Both the position numbers and the translations under genes were made by a program. From Eledone cirrhosa (Eukaryota), in the NCBI GenBank assembly GCA_964016885.1, contig OZ024741.1:226114001-226178000 (forward strand): 64,000 nucleotides of DNA, in the 5' to 3' direction. Below, in pieces: positions 1 through 60,816 of the stretch (positions are counted from its first letter, which is position 1; each line of letters begins with the position of its first letter). Below the pieces are notes generated by a model. That model had not been told where the DNA came from, made no database searches, and saw only the letters and a program-made list of their open reading frames with translations.

Positions 1-2723
1 CCTTATGTTCTATTTTAGAATGTTGGTGGGGTACAGATGATTCTTTACTATCTTGAAGCTCTCGCCAGTGTTCATTTATCCGTTCTTTTATACTACGAGC
101 TGTCTAACCTATGTACACTATATTCTTATCTCTACATTGTCCTTCAGTACATCTTATGCTATATACTACATTTCTAGTTTTACAGTTAATATGGGGGCGT
201 AGTTTACAGATTATACATTTCTTATCTATACAGGTAAGTCTTTGAAAAGGGTATGTATTACTAATAAGTGTTTTTATGGTGGTACCTGGTCTTTCTCCTA
301 TCTTAATATTGAGTTTATGTTTATCTAGCGCCCTTCTAAATGTGTAAGCTAATTCACCTCCAGGGGTTGTATTGATGAACATTACACTCTGGTATTTATT
401 GCTATCATACCATCAGTTTATTCTATTTACCTTATTCCTAGTTCTTTCTATTCTATTCCAAAATTTGCTCCTATTCAAGCGGCAGGTCCCATTTGTATCA
501 TTATTTACCATTTTTTCCCATTTGGTTCTGGCACCTCTATATACTCTAATTTTATCTCTCTGATTGTAACCAGAGAACTGCATACGGTGGATGAAGTGTT
601 TTATGTGTCTCTCAAGTTCTTTGGGGTTGCACATGCGGGACACGTTTCTCATCACCCGTACCAAATCCGCAATCAGTATGTTGATTTTGGTATGGTCCGA
701 AACAGCTGAGTTTCGGTGGATCAGATATTTGGAAGTCATGGGTTTGGCATAATGGGAATGGAGGATTTGTTTTTTGTTATTAATTGTTTCTACTTTAGGC
801 ACAAGGCCAGCAATTATCTCAGTGCATTACTGGTACTTTATTTTATCGACCCTGTAAGGATGAAAGGCAAAGTCAACCTCGGCGGGATTTGAACTCAGAT
901 CGTAAAGGGACGTAACTTAATAGTATCTAACCAGATCTCTGTGTCTAGTACAGGTAATCGATGGTTGGGGTGTTTGCTTGGGTAGTCTATAGTAACTCTA
1001 ATACTCTGGTGGATGGAGTTAGCTATTTGCTGGATGCTTTCCATGGTGTGTTTCTCTAATTCCTGACTGTTCTCTAGTAGAGGTGTTTTTTCTACGATGT
1101 TTATATCATCAACGTAGCGGGAGTACATTATCAGGGTTAAGAGGTTGCTGTCTTCTAATTGTTCTTTAAGTTTAAATTTAAGTCTATTGTCCCACCATAC
1201 CATGAATAGGTTAGCTATGTCACCTGCAATGCTAACACCAATGGCTGTTCCCTCCTCTTGGGCATATGTTTTTCGTTTAAATTTGAACATATGTTCCTTA
1301 AGGGTTAATTTTATACTGGCCCCCACCGCATATCCAATAATTTTCTTTAGTTCATCGTGGTTTTCGGGGGTCCGTATGGCTCTGGACCACCCGTTCCATC
1401 TATCTGTGTGAGTTTTCTTGGCCATTGAGGTAATGGTAGGTGGTCTGCCTCTTGCTGGTCTTGTAGGGCACAGGTTGCTAAGGTCATATGTATCTAGATA
1501 ATCATTACTATTGGTAAGTTTAAGTAGGAGTCCCAGCTCACTGGTTTCAATCCCACGGAATTCAACATTGCTCTCACTGATCATTTCTACGCATTTCTCC
1601 ACGGCAAAATCCACGTCAATAGATGGATATAGGGACACAACATCCATACTACCTATTATGCAGTTTGTTAGGTCCCTAGATCGGTTACATTCGCTGATTC
1701 TGCTGAGGAGGCCCTCCGTGCTGTCACGTATATCTGGGGACATTTCAATGATGGGGAGAGGAAGTAGGAAAGTCTGTAGTTACTAGCAATGTTAGCTCTA
1801 CAGACTGGCCGTGTTGGTGGTCCTGTGACAGGGTCACTGCACGTTTCATGGTCTTTTCGAAGCCCATACAACGCTGGCCCGTTATTGTTCCAGGCCTGGA
1901 AGTTGTTAGCAGTCCTTTTGTTGGGCTGCATTATGTTTGTCCACATCATCATATGGGAATTGAGGGTTTTTTCCCTATCCTCATGCTCTTGTGGTGTTAC
2001 TTCTCTTGTGTTAGTGATGTGGGGTTGCATTGCCTGGATGTAGTTTGACAGACTGTCAACCGACATTCTGCCAGACTTGTCTGTTGGAAAGCATGCAATC
2101 TCTCCATTACGCGAGCGCTGCATGAGCTTACGCAAGCCATTTGCAGATTGTTCTCCTAGTTGCTGGGCCTCCATTCTATTTTGCTTCTTGCTATACTGTT
2201 CTATAATATTTCTATGTTTAGATCTAGATATACTAAATTGTGTTTCTGCTTGTTCATCGTCCTGCGACGGCAATAGCATGCGTTTGTTAAAAGCTAAAGT
2301 CGTGGCGTGGACTCGTCGCAAGTCGAACGACTTATCGGAGGGATTATAAGAAGTAGAGTTCCAGGCTGCTGCTTTATGTGTACTATTGCTATTGTTGTTG
2401 TTATTGTTAGTTGTGTTGTTTCTATTTCTATTTCCACCAACAGCCTCATGGTTGTTTCTATGTCTCTCAGTATTACTCCTATCACTTTCCTCTGGCTCAT
2501 TGTTATTATCTACTCTATTTTGTGTGTCTGTGTGTTCGTCTTGGTTATTTTCTCTGTCAGTATCGATAGTCCCCCTTCTCCGTTCAATCCTATTACCTTC
2601 CCTTATTTCTGTGTTACTGTCATTACCTGTTTACTGTGCCTGTGTGTTTGTTAAGGTTGTGGTGGTGAGAGGCATAGAATGTGTGTGTGTTGTTGTTGTT
2701 GTTGATGTGTGTTGTGGTTGTTG
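1..2723 (-). mobile_element. Penelope-like retroelement family A, decayed RT + thumb + GIY-YIG ORF (runs off window start)
   Basis: ORF pieces give DKSGR and LYGLRKDH..PTRPVC (1668-2321); MDVVSLYPSID, QEEGTAIG, RYVDD and LPVLD (895-1743); thumb HYAKP..SGY (413-802); CxxC linker and NVVY.I.C...VYIG (104-382). There are frameshifts, a TAG at 104 where the copy near 59130 has GAG, and a SINE at 781-917. C-terminal-EN PLE; Nematis/Neptune-type clade is only a guess. Confidence 0.9.
781..917 (-). mobile_element. 5'-truncated tRNA-derived SINE (family S1) inserted in the PLE ORF
   Basis: Reverse complement of S1 (B box GAGTTCAAATCC, GCCTTTCATCCTTAC.GGGTCGATAAAATAAAGTACCAG); TTAAT on both sides. 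Confidence 0.9.
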
Positions 2724-3192
2724 TGAATGGAATAGCAACATCACAACTTACAATTAAGGACAAAATGAAAACACACACATAGAACAAGCAACCAACCAGT
2801 AACATGTAAATAAACAAATATAAACACACACAGACACCCGGATGTAACACATGCGCAAACTAAGCACACAACACATACAAAAACAAGATGGCGTAGGACA
2901 GAACAAAGAAGAGGCACAAAAACAAAGAAAAGAATCCCCAGTCACTGAAGAGGTCACAGAATATGTGACGAAAGAAGTTTGACAATATATGAACAATCGT
3001 CCGGTTCTGTAACCAACCAACCAATCGGAAATTCATAAATTCCTACATTTATAAATTTAATTTATAATAAATTGAAGTGAAACAACTGGTGCGTGTGTTT
3101 CTTACTGGCAACATGACCCTCCCAAAACATAACAATATCGGTTTCAACACACGTTTTCAGATAAAGAATCCTGCTAAACAAATTCAGAAACG

Positions 3193-4346: not shown

Positions 4347-4542
4347 GAACGATCGACTTTCGTCAAATAGGACCGAGGGAACAATGTTTCCGTTGGTCTT
4401 TCCAATTGCTAATACTATCTATCGGTCGCAACTCCAGGTAGAAGGAGCAACGTGAAATAATGTGTCTTGCTCAAGGACATAACGCATCACCTGGGCCAGG
4501 AATCGAACTCACAACCTTACGATTCTCTAACCACTCAGCCAC
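4343..4542 (-). mobile_element. tRNA-derived SINE family S2 (CORE/V-like domain)
   Basis: A box GTGGCTGAGTGG, B box GAGTTCGATTCC, TGTCCTTGAGCAAGACAC domain; near-identical to 20724-20935. Confidence 0.88.
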
Positions 4543-8476: not shown

Positions 8477-8868
8477 ATTGGTAAACGGAAAAGAAAATGC
8501 TGACAAATTGTTCCCAGTGAAAAATAGTTTAATTAGGAATAATTAAAATTAGTAATAGCATTGATTAGTATTCAGTTTTGGTTTCAAGGTTTACCGGTTG
8601 CGCATTTCTAATGCTTTTCAAAAATAATTTTGAGATAGAGCGCCCGTGATGTTTGCTCTAATCTGGATTAGAGCAAATCCGGATTAGAGCAAACATCACG
8701 GGCGCTCTATCTCAAAATTATTTTTGAAAAGCATTAGAAATGCGCAACCGGTAAACCTTAAAACCAAAACTGAATACTAATCAATGCTATTACTAATTTT
8801 AATTATTCCTAATTAAACTATTTTTCACTGGGAACAATTTGTCAGCATTTTCTTTTCCGTTTACTAAT
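8477..8868. repeat. Near-perfect ~390 bp palindrome between microsatellites
   Basis: Arms of ~185 bp with about 2 mismatches seen; GGATTAGAGCAAA is duplicated at the centre. Confidence 0.95.
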
Positions 8869-21050: not shown

Positions 21051-21366
21051 ATATACAAAAAAAAACAAGATGTCGTAGGACAGAATAAAAGAGAGGCACA
21101 AAAACAAATAAAAGACTCCCCAGTCACTGAAGAGGTCACAGAATGTGTGACGAAAGAACTTTGATAATATATGAACAATCGTCTGGTTGTGAAGCCAACC
21201 AACCAACCGGAAATTTATAAATTCCTAAATTTATAAATTTAATTTATAATAAATTGAAGTGAAAGCAACTCGTGCGTGTGTTTATTATTGGCAACATGAC
21301 CCTCCCAATATTTGTTTCAACAGACGTTTTCAGATAAAGAATCTTGCTAAACAAATTCAGAAACGA
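21051..21366 (+). mobile_element. Solo 3' tail of PLE family A
   Basis: Matches 2875-3193 and ends in (TA)n at the same base. Confidence 0.92.
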
Positions 21367-23185: not shown

Positions 23186-23221
23186 TTTTCTGATGAAGGA
23201 CAAGTGTCCGAAACGTTAAGA
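23186..23221 (+). ncRNA. Canonical minimal (dimer-type) hammerhead
   Basis: TTTT CTGATGA A GGACA AG TGTCC GAAAC GTT AAGA; palindromic AACGTT stem III. Confidence 0.8.
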
Positions 23222-23435
23222 CTTTCCGTACTATATTAGGCATCAAACTAATATATATCTTCATTGTATTTCATTGACTGTTATGTTTTTTCCGTTTACT
23301 TTTCACACACTCACACACACACACACAAACAAGCATATATATATGAATGTTTGCGTGCATGTTTAATATATATTCACATATGTATAATATGTATGTATGT
23401 ATATATATATATCTATGTATGTGTGTGCCTGTGTA

Positions 23436-28441: not shown

Positions 28442-29010
28442 TCGTTTCTGAATTTGTTTAGCAAGATTCTTTATCTGAAATCGTGTGTTGAAACCGATAT
28501 TGTTATACTTTGGGAGGGTCATGTTGCCAATAAGAAACACACGCACCAGTTGCTTTCACTTCAATTTATTATAATAAATTTATAAATTTAGGAATTTATA
28601 AATTTCTGGTTGGTTGGTTGGTTCCACAACCAGATAGTTGTTTATATATTGTCAAAGTTCTTTCGTCACACATTCTGTGACCTCTTCAGTGACTGGGGAT
28701 TCTTTTCTTTGTTTTTGTGCCTCTCCTTTGTTCTGTCCTACGCCTTTTTGTTTCTGTGTGTGTCAGAAACAAAATGGCGTAGGACAGAACAAAGGAGAGG
28801 CACAAAAACAAAGAAAAGAATCCCCAGTCACTGAAGAGGTCACAGAATGTGTGACGAAAGAACTTTGACAATATATAAACAATTACCTGGTTGTGGAACC
28901 AACCAATCAGAAATTTATAAATTCCTAAATTTATAAATTTATTATAATAAATTGAAGTGAAACAACTGGTGCGTGTATTTCTTATTGGCAACATGACCCT
29001 CCCAAAGTAT

Positions 29011-35629: not shown

Positions 35630-35830
35630 CGATAGAAATACACGCGCCTGTTGGTTTTCATATCAATTTATTACAAATGTCCAGTTGGTTGGTTTAATGT
35701 TTGTTTATTGTCAAAGATCTTTCGTCACACATTCTATGACCTCCTCAGTCGTTAATTTGTTATTTTCTATCTCTCCTTTTTTCTGTTCGTACACCATCTT
35801 GTTTTGTGTGCTGTGGCAACAGACGAAAAC
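35630..35830 (-). mobile_element. Diverged relative of the family A tail with HHR-like motif at 35710-35752
   Basis: CTGAGGA G GTCATA GAATG TGTGAC GAAAG AT CTT TGAC, plus AAACACGC and TTGGTTGGTT words shared with family A. Confidence 0.8.
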
Positions 35831-54626: not shown

Positions 54627-56753
54627 GTTATATTCATCATACAGAAACAACATCTGAATATTTCTACAAAGAACATACCCGTACCAAGCAGGAAAACATA
54701 CCTAAAACTCCAGAAAACAGGCGCGTTCATTAAAAGGTTGCGTTGGCGTTCCTTTTATTTCGATAATCAGGGAAAAGCAGACAGCAAACAGGATAAATTT
54801 GGGTTTAAAACCTATAATAACCCTCCTAGTAACCCAGCATTGCTACCCTTCGAAAATTATGTCTTGGAACTCATACGGAGTATCAAATTTCGGAATAGGA
54901 ACAATTCCTTCCAGCAGGACCTGAAGAATAGAATTCGTTCTATTAAGGATTCTAATGCCGTGTACGTCCATTCCGACAAAACTGGCAATCTATATCAAGT
55001 GGAGCGCAGTACTTACCATCAACTGCTACATAATGCTGTAACTAAGGATTACCGCAAAACTAATTGGAGCGTCATTAATGAAATCAACGATGCTGGGTTT
55101 AAAATCACCTCTGATCTCAACATCCTGGACCGGGCTAAACCTCTGGGCCCTATTTCTCTCCACTTTACCCTGAAGGATCACAAATCCAATTTCCCGAACA
55201 ACCCCTCTATTCGGCTTATTAACCCGACGAAGTCCGATATAGGTAGACTTATTAAAAGGATTTTAGATAGAATTATACCTGACATTAGAAGTTTGGCCTC
55301 TCTTGCACTGTGGAACAATTCTTCCGCGGTGATTGATTGGTTCAACGGCATATGCAACAAGGAACATTGCCGTTTTATCCAATTCGACATCAATAATTAC
55401 TACTCCTCCATCACTTTACCACTTCTTCTTAGAGCTATCAATTTCGCTAAAACACTCACAGTGGTTAAGGATTTCGAAGTTGATGTCATCCTCAATGCCC
55501 GTAAGTCGGTGATTAATTTCGACGACTCTATTTCGATGAAAAAATCTAATAGTAACCCATTCGACGTGAGTATGGGCGCCAGCGATTCTGCGGAGGTTAC
55601 TGATCTTATCGGCCTTTTCCTTCTTTTCTCTATCAAGGAAGAATTCCCCAACGTGGGCGGTGGTTTGTACCGTGATGACGGTCTTTTGACCATGACAAAG
55701 TGCAGCCCACGTGCATACGACAGGTTCAGAAAGGAACTCACAGCCTTCTTTAACCTCTCCATACAGGTCGAGGCGAATCTCTCGGTCGTTAATTACCTCG
55801 ACGTTACCCTCAATTTGTCGAATGGCTTGCACTACCCGTATAGAAAGCCGAATGATACGCTTAATTAGATAAGTAAGCATTCTAACCATCCTACCAGCAT
55901 AACCAAGAACCTAGTAAGAAACGTTTCTTTGAGGCTTTCCCGTCTATCAACTAACGAGCATATTTTTAACGACCATTCCACATATTACAATGAAGCTCTT
56001 GTTCAGGGTGGATTTGTCGATAAGGTAGCTTATACAGAGTATGAGAATAGACCTAGGGAAAATAGATCCCGACGCATTATATGGTATAACCCACCATATA
56101 ATATGGAGGTGGCCACACCATTAGCTAAGATCTTTCTCTCCCTTATTATGAAGCATTTCCCCCCATGACATAAATATAGTAACATTTTTAATAGAAATAC
56201 CATTAAAATTTCTTACTCTACTACTCCTAACCTTGCTCATAACATCACAGCTTCAAATGTAGCTAAATTAACTAGCCGTAGGAACACGTGCAACCCTGTA
56301 ACTAGTACTAATTGTAATTGTAGGAATCGGGTTGACTGCCCTCTATCCGGGAAATGCCTCTCTAGTAACATTGTCTACAAATGTAAGGTCGAAACACCCA
56401 CGTCCCATAGGGCCTACATAGGGTTAACCGCCAATAGATTGAAGCAGCGTCTCTACATGCATACCTCATTCTTTTCTTAAACCTTTAAGAAGGAATATGA
56501 CGTCACTTTCAGCTTTTATCTGGAGTCTAAAAGACAACCACACCCAATATAAGTTACACTGCGAGATCCTAGCTAGGCTAGATCGTATAACAGAAATAAA
56601 AGACCATGTGACCTCTGCGGCGTCGAGGCCCTGAAATACTCTACGACAAAGACCACATCTTGAACAAAAAATCTCAGGCGATTTCGGCTTGTAAACATAA
56701 ATTACACAAAACTTTCCTGTATTACAACCCCACATTATACCCTAATGGATAGT
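54627..56753 (+). pseudogene. PLE RT + GIY-YIG ORF, disrupted
   Basis: STKNIP, DKTGN, LKDHK, RLINP, FDI..YY.SI, FDVSMGA.D.AE, YRDD, WYNPP, IVY..YIG, CDLC; stops at 55866 and 56166 and frameshifts in the EN domain. Confidence 0.92.
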
Positions 56754-58356: not shown

Positions 58357-58477
58357 TTAGTCTGTTATTTTAATAAATATTTGCTCTACGGTTCTTATAT
58401 ATCTGATATATATTTATCATTATCGAGCCCTCTTTGGATTTTAGTCTTCAATTTATTATTATTACTACATATATATA

Positions 58478-60816
58478 TTGTTATGCTTTGGGAGGGTCAT
58501 GTTGCCTATAAGAAACACACGCACCAGTTGCTTTCACTCCAATTTATTATAAATTAAATTTATAAATTTAAGAATTTATAAATTTCTGGTTGGTTGGTTG
58601 GTTCCACAACCAGACGATTGTTCATATATTGTCAAAGTTCTTTCGTCACACATTATGTGACGTCTTCAGTGGCTGGGGATTCTTTTCTTTGTTTTTGTGC
58701 CTCTCCTTTGTTCTGTCCTACGCCATCTTGTTTTTTTGTTTGCTGTGTGCTTAGTTTGCGCATGTGTTACATCCGGGTGTCTGTGTGTGTTTATATTTGT
58801 TTATTTATTTGTTTATGTACATGTTACTGGTTGGTTGTTTGTTCTATATGTGTGTTTGTTTTCATTTTGTCCTTAATTGTAAGTTGTGATGTTGCTATTC
58901 CATTCATGTTTTCTATTTAATTTTGGTTGGAGTTCATTTATGTTTATTGCCTCTGTGATTCGTCTAAACATTGCGTCTTTTCTGTGTGTAGATTCTATTT
59001 TTATTTCTATGTTCTCTAATTTACCCTCATGTTCTATTTTAGCATGTTGGTGGAGTACAGATGATTCTTTACTATCTTGAAGCTCTCGCCAGTGTTCATG
59101 TATCCGTTCTCCTATACTACGAGCTGTCTCACCTATGTACACTATATTCTTATCTCTACATTGTCCTTCAGTACATCTTAAGCTATATACTACATTTCTA
59201 GTTTTACAGTTAATATGGGACTTAATTTACAGATTATACATTTCTTATCTATACAGGGAGGTCTTTGAAAAGGGTATGTATTGCTAATAAGTGTTTTTAT
59301 GGAGGCACCTGGTCTTTCTACTATCTTAATATTGAGTTTATGTTCATCTAGCGCCCTTCTAAATTTGTAAGCTAGTTCACCTCTAGGGGTTGTATTGAAG
59401 AACATTACACTCTGGTATTTATTGCTATTATACCATGAGTTTATTCTATTAACCTTATTCCTAGATCTTTCTATTCTATTCCAAAATGTGCTTCTCTACA
59501 AGGGGCAGGTCCCATTTGTATCATTATTTACCATTTTTTCCCATTTGGTTCTGGCTCCTCTATATACTCTGATGATATCTCTCTGATTGTAACCAGAGAA
59601 CTGCATACGGTGGATGAAGTGTTGTATGTGTCTCTCTAGTTCTCTGGGGCTGCACATGCGGGACACGTTTCTCATCACCCGTACCAAATCCGCAATCAGT
59701 ATATTGATTTTGGTGTGGTTACAATCAGAGAGATAAAATCAAAGTATATAGAAAAGCCAGAACCAAGTGGGAGAAAATGGTAAATAATGATACAAATGGG
59801 ACCTGCCCCTTGTATAGGAGCAAATTTTGAAATAGAATAGAAGGAACTAGGAATAATATTAATAGAATAAACTCATGGTATGATAGCAAAGAATACCAGA
59901 GTGTAATGTTCATCAATACACCCCCTAGAGGTGAATTAGCTTACAAATTTAGAAGGGCCCTAGATAAACATAAACTCAATATTAGATAGTAGAAAGACCA
60001 GGTACCTCCATAAAAACACTTATTAGCAATACATACCCTTTTCAAAGACCTCCCTGTATAGATAAGAAATGTATAATCTGTAAATTAAGCCCCATATTAA
60101 CTGTAAAACTAGAATTGTAGTATATATCATAACATGTACTGAAGGACAATGTAGAGATAAGAATATAGTGTACATAGGTGAGACAGCACGTAGTATAGGA
60201 GAACGGATACATGAACACTGGCGAGAGCTTCAAGATAGTAAAAAATCATCTGTACTCCACCAACATGCTAAAATAGAACATAAGGGTAAATTAGAGAACA
60301 TAGAAATAAAAATAGAATCTACACATAGAAAAGACGCAATGTTTCGACAAATCACAGAGGCAATAAACATAAATGAACTCCAACCAAAATTAAATAGAAA
60401 ATATGAGTGGAACAGCAACATCACAACTTACAATTAAGGACAAAATGAAAACACACACACACACATAGAACAAACAACCAACCAGTAACATGTAAATAAA
60501 CAAATAAATAAATAAATATAAACACACACAGACACCCGGATGTAACACATGCGCAAACTAAGCACACAGCAAACAAAAAAAACAAGATGGCGTAGGACAG
60601 AACAAAGGAGAGGCACAAAAACAAAGAAAAGAATCCCCAGTCACTGAAGAGGTCACAGAATGTGTAACGAAAGAACTTTGACAATATATGAACAATCGTC
60701 TGGTTGTGGAACCAACCAACAAACCAGAAATTTATAAATTCTTAAATTTATAAATTTAATTTATAATAAATTGGAGTGAAAGCAACTGGTGCGTGTGTTT
60801 CTTATTGGCAACATGA
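58478..60816. mobile_element. Head-to-head inverted pair of 5'-truncated family A PLEs
   Basis: Minus arm 58478-59720 and plus arm 59717-60816, each encoding YIGETARS..ER..EH..LN.K.EWN. Confidence 0.95.

What the first reader, a model, noticed from the sequence alone, without database searches (positions are those of the whole stretch)
2941..2983. Non-canonical family A hammerhead: G-C flipped stem III and CUU site, conserved in a diverged relative
Seen: six copies read GTCA CTGAAGA G [GTCACA/TGTGAC] GAAA G AA C TT TGAC, with occasional single changes. This has one extra nucleotide after the core, G15.2-C16.2 instead of the usual C-G, and a predicted CUU site. The diverged relative at 35710-35752 changes the variable N7 (CTGAGGA), keeps stem II by a G-U wobble, and has a perfectly palindromic AAAGATCTTT. 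Established: minimal PLE HHRs cleave as dimers through palindromic stem III. Inference: a functional dimer-type variant that searches requiring GAAAC..GUH would miss.
Basis: partly seen in the sequence, partly recalled or inferred. Interest (0 to 1): 0.7.

Follow-up and report, generated by a model that had tools for sequence, protein, structure and literature searches.

The report
Penelope hammerhead with non-palindromic third helix
This is one damaged copy of a predicted self-cutting RNA carried by a very abundant Penelope-type jumping gene; the features flagged as unusual are already published, and the only oddity left is that its shortest helix is not the mirror-image sequence that pairwise cutting is thought to need.

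Summary
The motif is real. It is a minimal type I hammerhead in the terminal repeat of a Neptune-like Penelope element, with 28,045 genome matches against 32 for the control and compensatory stem changes between sister families. The three 'non-canonical' traits are in print. In Cervera and de la Peña 2014, Fig. S3, G15.2-C16.2 occurs in 7 of 56 motifs, CUU in 3 of 56, the extra nucleotide is the consensus, and Oikopleura has the same GAAA-GAUC-UU. The named copy reads GAAG, so it lacks the G-C pair. The 'conserved palindromic relative' is a decayed copy with a broken stem I; 21 of its 27 nearest relatives read GAGC. What remains is that helix III is not palindromic: GAAC in 22,189 matches, GATC in 169. 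AA is the least stable of 16 predicted dimer centres, so the palindromic-dimer inference does not fit this family. Cleavage is untested. The scan's notes cover other hammerheads in this genome, none like this one.

The parts
2941..2983 (+). Named hammerhead copy: stem I 2941-2944/2980-2983, core 2945-2951, extra G 2952, stem II 2953-2958/2964-2969, GAAA 2970-2973, helix III insert GAAG 2974-2977 (mutant; family GAAC), predicted cut after 2979
2724..3138 (+). Inverted copy of the element's 3' end (pseudo-LTR) at the 5' side of the ORF; the hammerhead here is antisense to the adjacent ORF
1..2630 (-). Broken Neptune-like Penelope ORF: RT (895-1779, 1668-2630), CxxxxCxxC linker and GIY-YIG-type endonuclease (1-780); its sense 3' hammerhead lies about 350 bases before the window (L031:9649, minus)
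28827..28869 (+). Intact consensus-type copy (GAAC, CUU; predicted cut after 28865), back to back with the copy at 28651-28693
28651..28693 (-). Intact consensus-type copy
21123..21165 (+). Family copy, outer stem I pair G-U
58631..58673 (-). Family copy about 350 bases downstream of and sense to the endonuclease C-terminus; stem I mismatch
60640..60682 (+). Family copy in the mirror arm of the inverted pair 58475-60816; stem II mismatch
35710..35752 (-). Decayed copy of the older GAGC subfamily; GATC centre and broken stem I are particular to this copy or a few copies

Best explanation
This is a minimal type I hammerhead motif in the terminal repeat of a Neptune-like Penelope retrotransposon, which likely cuts the element's RNA slowly after CUU, probably as a protein-assisted double hammerhead whose shared helix III would hold two A·A mismatches rather than a palindrome. 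Shown: the place in the 3' repeat, sense to the ORF; tens of thousands of copies; full-length units of about 4.2 kb with a same-strand motif at both ends; an unchanged core and compensatory stems between families. Inferred: cleavage, dimer formation and help from the element's protein. The copy at 2941 is an inserted, mutated, antisense copy with no expected activity of its own.
For: Location and orientation. In L347 a motif lies at 4538, an 881-aa reading frame follows, and a second motif lies at 8737. The 11 core positions and G15.2/C16.2 are the same in families whose EN DNA is only 70-72% identical. Three pairs show changes on both sides, one in stem I and two in stem II; 92.9% of cells pair against 18.5-43.5% for slid controls (14 hand-picked rows, related by descent). 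Between lineages N7, the extra base and position 17 (U, A, C) change, and no lineage has G17 in the rows seen. The monomer fold with helix III costs 5.7 kcal/mol over the open junction (-3.4 against -9.1), as for other minimal motifs. A G-C flipped minimal motif from Schistosoma cut weakly as dimer or trimer and not as monomer (PMC4209133). The Anolis Penelope hammerhead cut only when protein was added (PMC11167929). The three lineage-level changes of the centre (AA to GA, AG, AU) all lower the predicted dimer energy.
Against: No cleavage or expression data. The AA centre is the least stable of all 16 centres (+2.4 kcal/mol), and the predicted double hammerhead (-15.6) is no better than two isolated stem II hairpins (-16.0). 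Close neighbours are mostly inverted, which cannot form a double hammerhead in cis: 17 of 21 pairs within 5 kb among the first 100 rows (hand count). A same-strand upstream repeat was seen in 5 of 20 long copies, with the motif pattern matched in 2. Two of the three centre changes are A>G, the commonest change among copies (8 of 17 variable places in run X1), so they may reflect mutation bias rather than selection. AA shared by families A and B is not significant alone (about 0.36 at the flank rate; my estimate). Hammerhead mutants did not impair Anolis insertion in vitro.
Confidence: 0.5

Rival explanations
1. The motif would cut as a monomer: helix III is the single A15.1-U16.1 pair capped by a structured GANC-type tetraloop (GAAC, GAGC, GAUC), so no palindrome is needed.
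For: The GAAC, GAGC and GATC lineages all fit GANC, a fold described in group IIC introns (PMC3616724 passages). G and C are fixed while the centre drifts. Most copies have no same-strand neighbour.
Against: A successful young lineage has GGAC, which is not GANC (16 of the first 100 rows). The monomer fold is unfavourable by 5.7 kcal/mol. An axolotl motif with one pair plus a tetraloop cut poorly as monomer and well as dimer (PMC7229834).
Confidence: 0.17
2. The fold is kept mainly as a binding or boundary structure for the element's protein and cuts rarely or never; the loss of the palindrome marks relaxed selection on catalysis.
For: AA is the weakest centre and is ancestral by parsimony in both families. 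In Anolis, hammerhead mutants did not affect insertion and no RNA reads began at the cut site. Naiad elements thrive without a canonical hammerhead (PMC8557442). U17 is a slow site in engineered hammerheads (recalled, no call).
Against: All 11 catalytic positions are unchanged between families whose flanks are 35-47% different, and no lineage has G17 in the rows seen. That is the pattern expected of selection on catalysis.
Confidence: 0.22
3. One reading: a non-canonical, conserved variant that dimerises through a palindromic, G-C flipped stem III.
For: True for one small lineage nested in sister family B (GATC with A17; 8 of the first 100 rows) and for another family in this genome with GTAC-UU (5 copies).
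Against: The palindromic centre makes up 169 of 28,045 matches (0.6%), about the per-base decay rate at a control position (435 of 28,045 over three bases), and is scattered over all subfamilies. The same GAUC-UU is published for Oikopleura.
Confidence: 0.06

Closest known systems
Minimal and near-minimal hammerheads of metazoan Penelope-like elements (Cervera and de la Peña 2014, PMC4209133; parts 1-2 of 4 of the main text and the whole supplement PDF text read)
   Same: Type I order, short stem I (4 bp), long stem II (6 bp), extra base between 9 and 10.1, G10.1-C11.1, place in the pLTR. G15.2-C16.2 in 7 of 56, CUU in 3 of 56, U17 in 24 of 56 rows of Fig. S3 (my hand counts).
   Different: Helix III is non-palindromic GAAC, which is in none of the 56 rows; 2 rows are non-palindromic in other ways (Hydra, Latimeria 3). 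The extra base is G in family A, as in 1 of 56 rows (consensus H).
Oikopleura dioica and Marsupenaeus japonicus PLE hammerheads (same Fig. S3)
   Same: G-NN-C insert with G15.2-C16.2. Oikopleura has exactly GAAA-GAUC-UU, the reading of the copy at 35710-35752.
   Different: Their centres (AU, CG) are palindromic. Here 79% of matches have AA.
Axolotl HHR_Amex1 (PMC7229834; abstract and passages read)
   Same: Helix III of one pair plus a tetraloop; weak as monomer, better as dimer.
   Different: Its tetraloop is palindromic, it has loop 1-loop 2 contacts, and it sits in non-coding tandem repeats.
Anolis Poseidon PAc hammerhead (PMC11167929; abstract and passages read)
   Same: Hammerhead at the pLTR-ORF junction of an endonuclease-bearing Penelope element.
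   Different: Poseidon clade. Cleavage was tested there (protein-dependent) and is untested here.
Small PLE hammerhead variants of Lünse, Weinberg and Breaker 2017
   Same: By its title and the review's account: short stem III, PLE-linked, cut as dimers.
   Different: Cannot say: the paper is not held and may already list non-palindromic inserts.

Membership tests
Type I hammerhead ribozyme | Core CUGANGA ... GAAA ... UH in type I order | tested here: met
   core unchanged between families
Type I hammerhead ribozyme | Stems I and II with covariation | tested here: met
   3 pairs with changes on both sides; 3 of 6 window copies keep all pairs
Type I hammerhead ribozyme | Site-specific self-cleavage | not testable with these tools
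   needs a bench assay or RNA-end reads
PLE minimal hammerhead (Cervera and de la Peña 2014) | Located in the pLTR of a Penelope-like element, sense to the ORF | tested here: met
PLE minimal hammerhead (Cervera and de la Peña 2014) | Extra nucleotide between 9 and 10.1; G10.1-C11.1; long stem II, short stem I | tested here: met
PLE minimal hammerhead (Cervera and de la Peña 2014) | Palindromic positions 15.2-16.2 and loop 3 | tested here: not met
   GAAC 22,189 and GATC 169 of 28,045
PLE minimal hammerhead (Cervera and de la Peña 2014) | Cleaves as a dimer | not testable with these tools
   only nearest-neighbour energies and copy arrangement
Neptune/Nematis-type EN+ Penelope-like element | [quoted passage not shown] | tested here: met
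   translations; definition in PMC8557442; Pfam RVT_1 at E 4e-4, below its cut-off
Neptune/Nematis-type EN+ Penelope-like element | Placement in the Neptune clade on an RT tree | not tested
   no reference sequences fetched; 'Neptune-like' rests on the linker motif
GANC tetraloop (group IIC intron domain V) | Loop sequence GANC in all lineages | tested here: not met
   GAAC, GAGC and GATC fit; the GGAC lineage does not
GANC tetraloop (group IIC intron domain V) | GANC fold on a stable hairpin | not testable with these tools
   only one closing pair here

The most novel reading that the evidence does not exclude
A clade of Penelope elements with over 20,000 copies has dropped the palindrome from helix III and cuts with a helix III of one base pair capped by a GANC-type loop, as a monomer or clamped by its own reverse transcriptase. 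It would be a 43-nt natural hammerhead that needs neither a partner nor loop-loop contacts.
Probability: 0.12. Interest if true: 0.55.

Novelty: new variant of a known kind. Interest (0 to 1): 0.24.

Why it matters
Penelope hammerheads are well known, and the flagged traits add nothing. The non-palindromic helix III has modest value. It is a natural series (AA ancestral; GA, AG and AU derived; U17 to A17 twice) in one amplifying clade, and it allows a direct test of whether palindromic dimer pairing, or cleavage at all, matters for Penelope replication. The papers read here leave that question open. It also shows that descriptors limited to a 2-nt insert, and Rfam, miss about 28,000 motifs in this genome.

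Tried and rejected
Rfam: no hammerhead among the 150 listed of 159 window matches and none at E<=10 on 28790-28910. RNA evidence: no RNA holder listed; contigs of 4 runs were laid and cannot show RNA ends. Heterodimer with a complementary GTTC partner family: 3 genome matches, rejected. Selection on inserted copies: core load 3.4% against 6.9% and 6.8% in the flanks (27 copies of the older subfamily), and 1.2% against 4.0% and 2.1% (30 copies of the main one); this is weak and confounded by sub-lineages, so I did not use it. An alternative cleavage register (second U as 16.1) breaks stem I, rejected by inspection. Lünse et al. 2017 is not held. Searches for a published non-palindromic case: 'hammerhead' + 'non-palindromic', four-term searches and GANC/GAAC tetraloop listed none by title or abstract. 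A paper giving NUH rates for CUU was not found. Supplements of PMC3088659 (Fig. S8C, palindromes of stem III) were not opened and may hold non-palindromic cases.

Full report
Observation. Two details are wrong. The copy named in the finding reads GAAG at 2974-2977, so it has no G15.2-C16.2 pair. The diverged copy at 35710-35752 keeps only 1 of 4 stem I pairs. Three of the six copies keep all pairs.

What it is. The motif lies about 350 bases downstream of, and sense to, the end of an ORF with a reverse transcriptase, a CxxxxCxxC linker and a GIY-YIG-type endonuclease. That is the Neptune/Nematis layout described in PMC8557442 (passages); I built no tree with reference elements. The stretch 2724-3138 is an inverted copy of the element's 3' end in front of the ORF, a usual Penelope arrangement, so the named motif is antisense to its neighbour. 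The element's sense motif lies just before the window (L031). Among 20 long copies, 5 have a same-strand 3'-end repeat upstream, and in 2 the motif pattern matched there. L347 shows motif, 881-aa frame and motif in a unit of about 4.2 kb.

Conservation. A sister family B (EN DNA 70-72% identical; protein pieces 33-71%) has stem II GTTGCA/TGCAAC for GTCACA/TGTGAC and the same core and GAAAGAACTT. Majority sequences of families A and B are 0.79 identical in the motif against 0.65 upstream and 0.53 downstream. On 14 hand-picked rows, 3 pairs change on both sides and 92.9% of cells pair, against 18.5-43.5% for slid partners. The rows are related by descent, so these are about three events. The motif is under selection between families.

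The flagged traits are published. I read parts 1-2 of 4 of PMC4209133 and all the text of its supplement PDF. The paper names the extra nucleotide between 9 and 10.1 as a conserved trait and gives the consensus GAAAN-palindrome-NUH. In the 56 rows of Fig. S3 I count G15.2-C16.2 in 7, U17 in 24 and CUU in 3. The Schistosoma motif tested in vitro has the G-C flip and cut weakly as dimer or trimer, not as monomer. The published descriptor is gaaannuh, not GAAAC..GUH. Applied to the window it finds only the motif at 23190; with a 4-nt insert it finds 4 family copies; 50 shuffles give 0. So the miss is due to length. Within this genome another family has GTAC-UU with a perfect palindrome (5 copies), and an old one has GCAC/GTGC-UC, which I read as CpG-decayed GCGC.

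The palindrome is not conserved. GATC makes up 169 and GAAC 22,189 of the 28,045 matches. The first 100 rows give AA 79, GA 16, AG 4, AC 1, AT 0 (hand count). A control position shows 435 changes over three bases, about 0.5% per base, close to the 0.6% for GATC, and GATC is scattered over all subfamilies. Of the 27 nearest relatives of the 35710 copy with a readable motif (29 loci), 21 read GAGC, 3 GATC, 2 GAGT and 1 GAAC, and none has its ACGA. Against this reading, one small palindromic lineage is real: GATC with A17, nested inside family B (8 of the first 100 rows).

What is left. Helix III of the family is A-GAAC-U, found in none of the 56 published rows. On a tree of 78 EN segments (midpoint root, bootstrap not settled) AA is ancestral by parsimony in A and B, with GA, AG and AT derived and U17 changed to A twice. 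Nearest-neighbour energies rank AA last of 16 dimer centres (+2.4; AG -0.4, GA -1.7, AU -5.0 kcal/mol), and the double hammerhead is no better than two stem II hairpins. No complementary partner family exists (3 matches). Most other hammerhead families seen in the fetched DNA have palindromes (TATATA, CTAG, TGCA, CG, GTAC), although one has CATTG (3 copies). The derived centres are all more stable, which fits pairing across a dimer.

Mechanism. Most likely (0.5) the motif cuts slowly after U17 as a mismatched double hammerhead between the two repeats of a tandem transcript, helped by the element's protein, as the Anolis motif needs protein (PMC11167929 passages). Cleavage, dimer formation and protein help are all inferred.

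Novelty. It is a type I hammerhead of a Penelope-like element that fails one defining trait of the published minimal class, the palindrome, so I file it as a variant. My literature searches listed no non-palindromic case by title or abstract. The largest survey (Lünse et al. 2017) could not be read and may already hold it. Interest 0.24.

Noticed in passing
window 23186-23225 (+): A textbook minimal hammerhead with a CG palindrome and GUU site, of another family; similar copies in L048 and L100.
   Followed up: partly
window about 11377 (+), 36660 (-), 4189 (+): Further degenerate hammerhead-like motifs (ATCGAT insert with U3; long stem II; CCGA insert).
   Followed up: no
window 778-917: Part of a roughly 190-base repeat with more than a dozen copies in the window sits inside the Penelope ORF and interrupts it.
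   Followed up: no
window 54627-55868 (+): A 413-aa frame with RT-like motifs (RLINPTKSDIG, YRDDGL) and no Pfam match; it looks like a Naiad-type Penelope RT (resemblance recalled, not tested).
   Followed up: no
L013:1238(-), L048:1318(+), L048:8735(-), L063:169(+), L079:602(+): A separate very small hammerhead family with G-C flip, palindromic GTAC, CUU site and a GAAA-capped stem II.
   Followed up: partly
L336-L340: An old family with GCAC or GTGC inserts and CUC site, read as CpG decay of palindromic GCGC.
   Followed up: partly
L092:2206(+), L092:4176(-), L328:414(+): Hammerheads with a 5-nt CATTG insert, a near-palindrome with a central mismatch.
   Followed up: no
L134:4040-4115, L127:2920-2995 (family B): Family B has a C·A or C·U mismatch in stem I and a possible distal helix (ATAGT/ACTAT) beyond an internal loop, which could give a loop 1-loop 2 contact that family A lacks (by eye).
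   Followed up: no
window 28767-29010: Differences among copies in run contigs are mostly A>G on the sense strand (8 of 17 variable places in X1, 11 of 21 in X5, 10 of 21 in X6).
   Followed up: no
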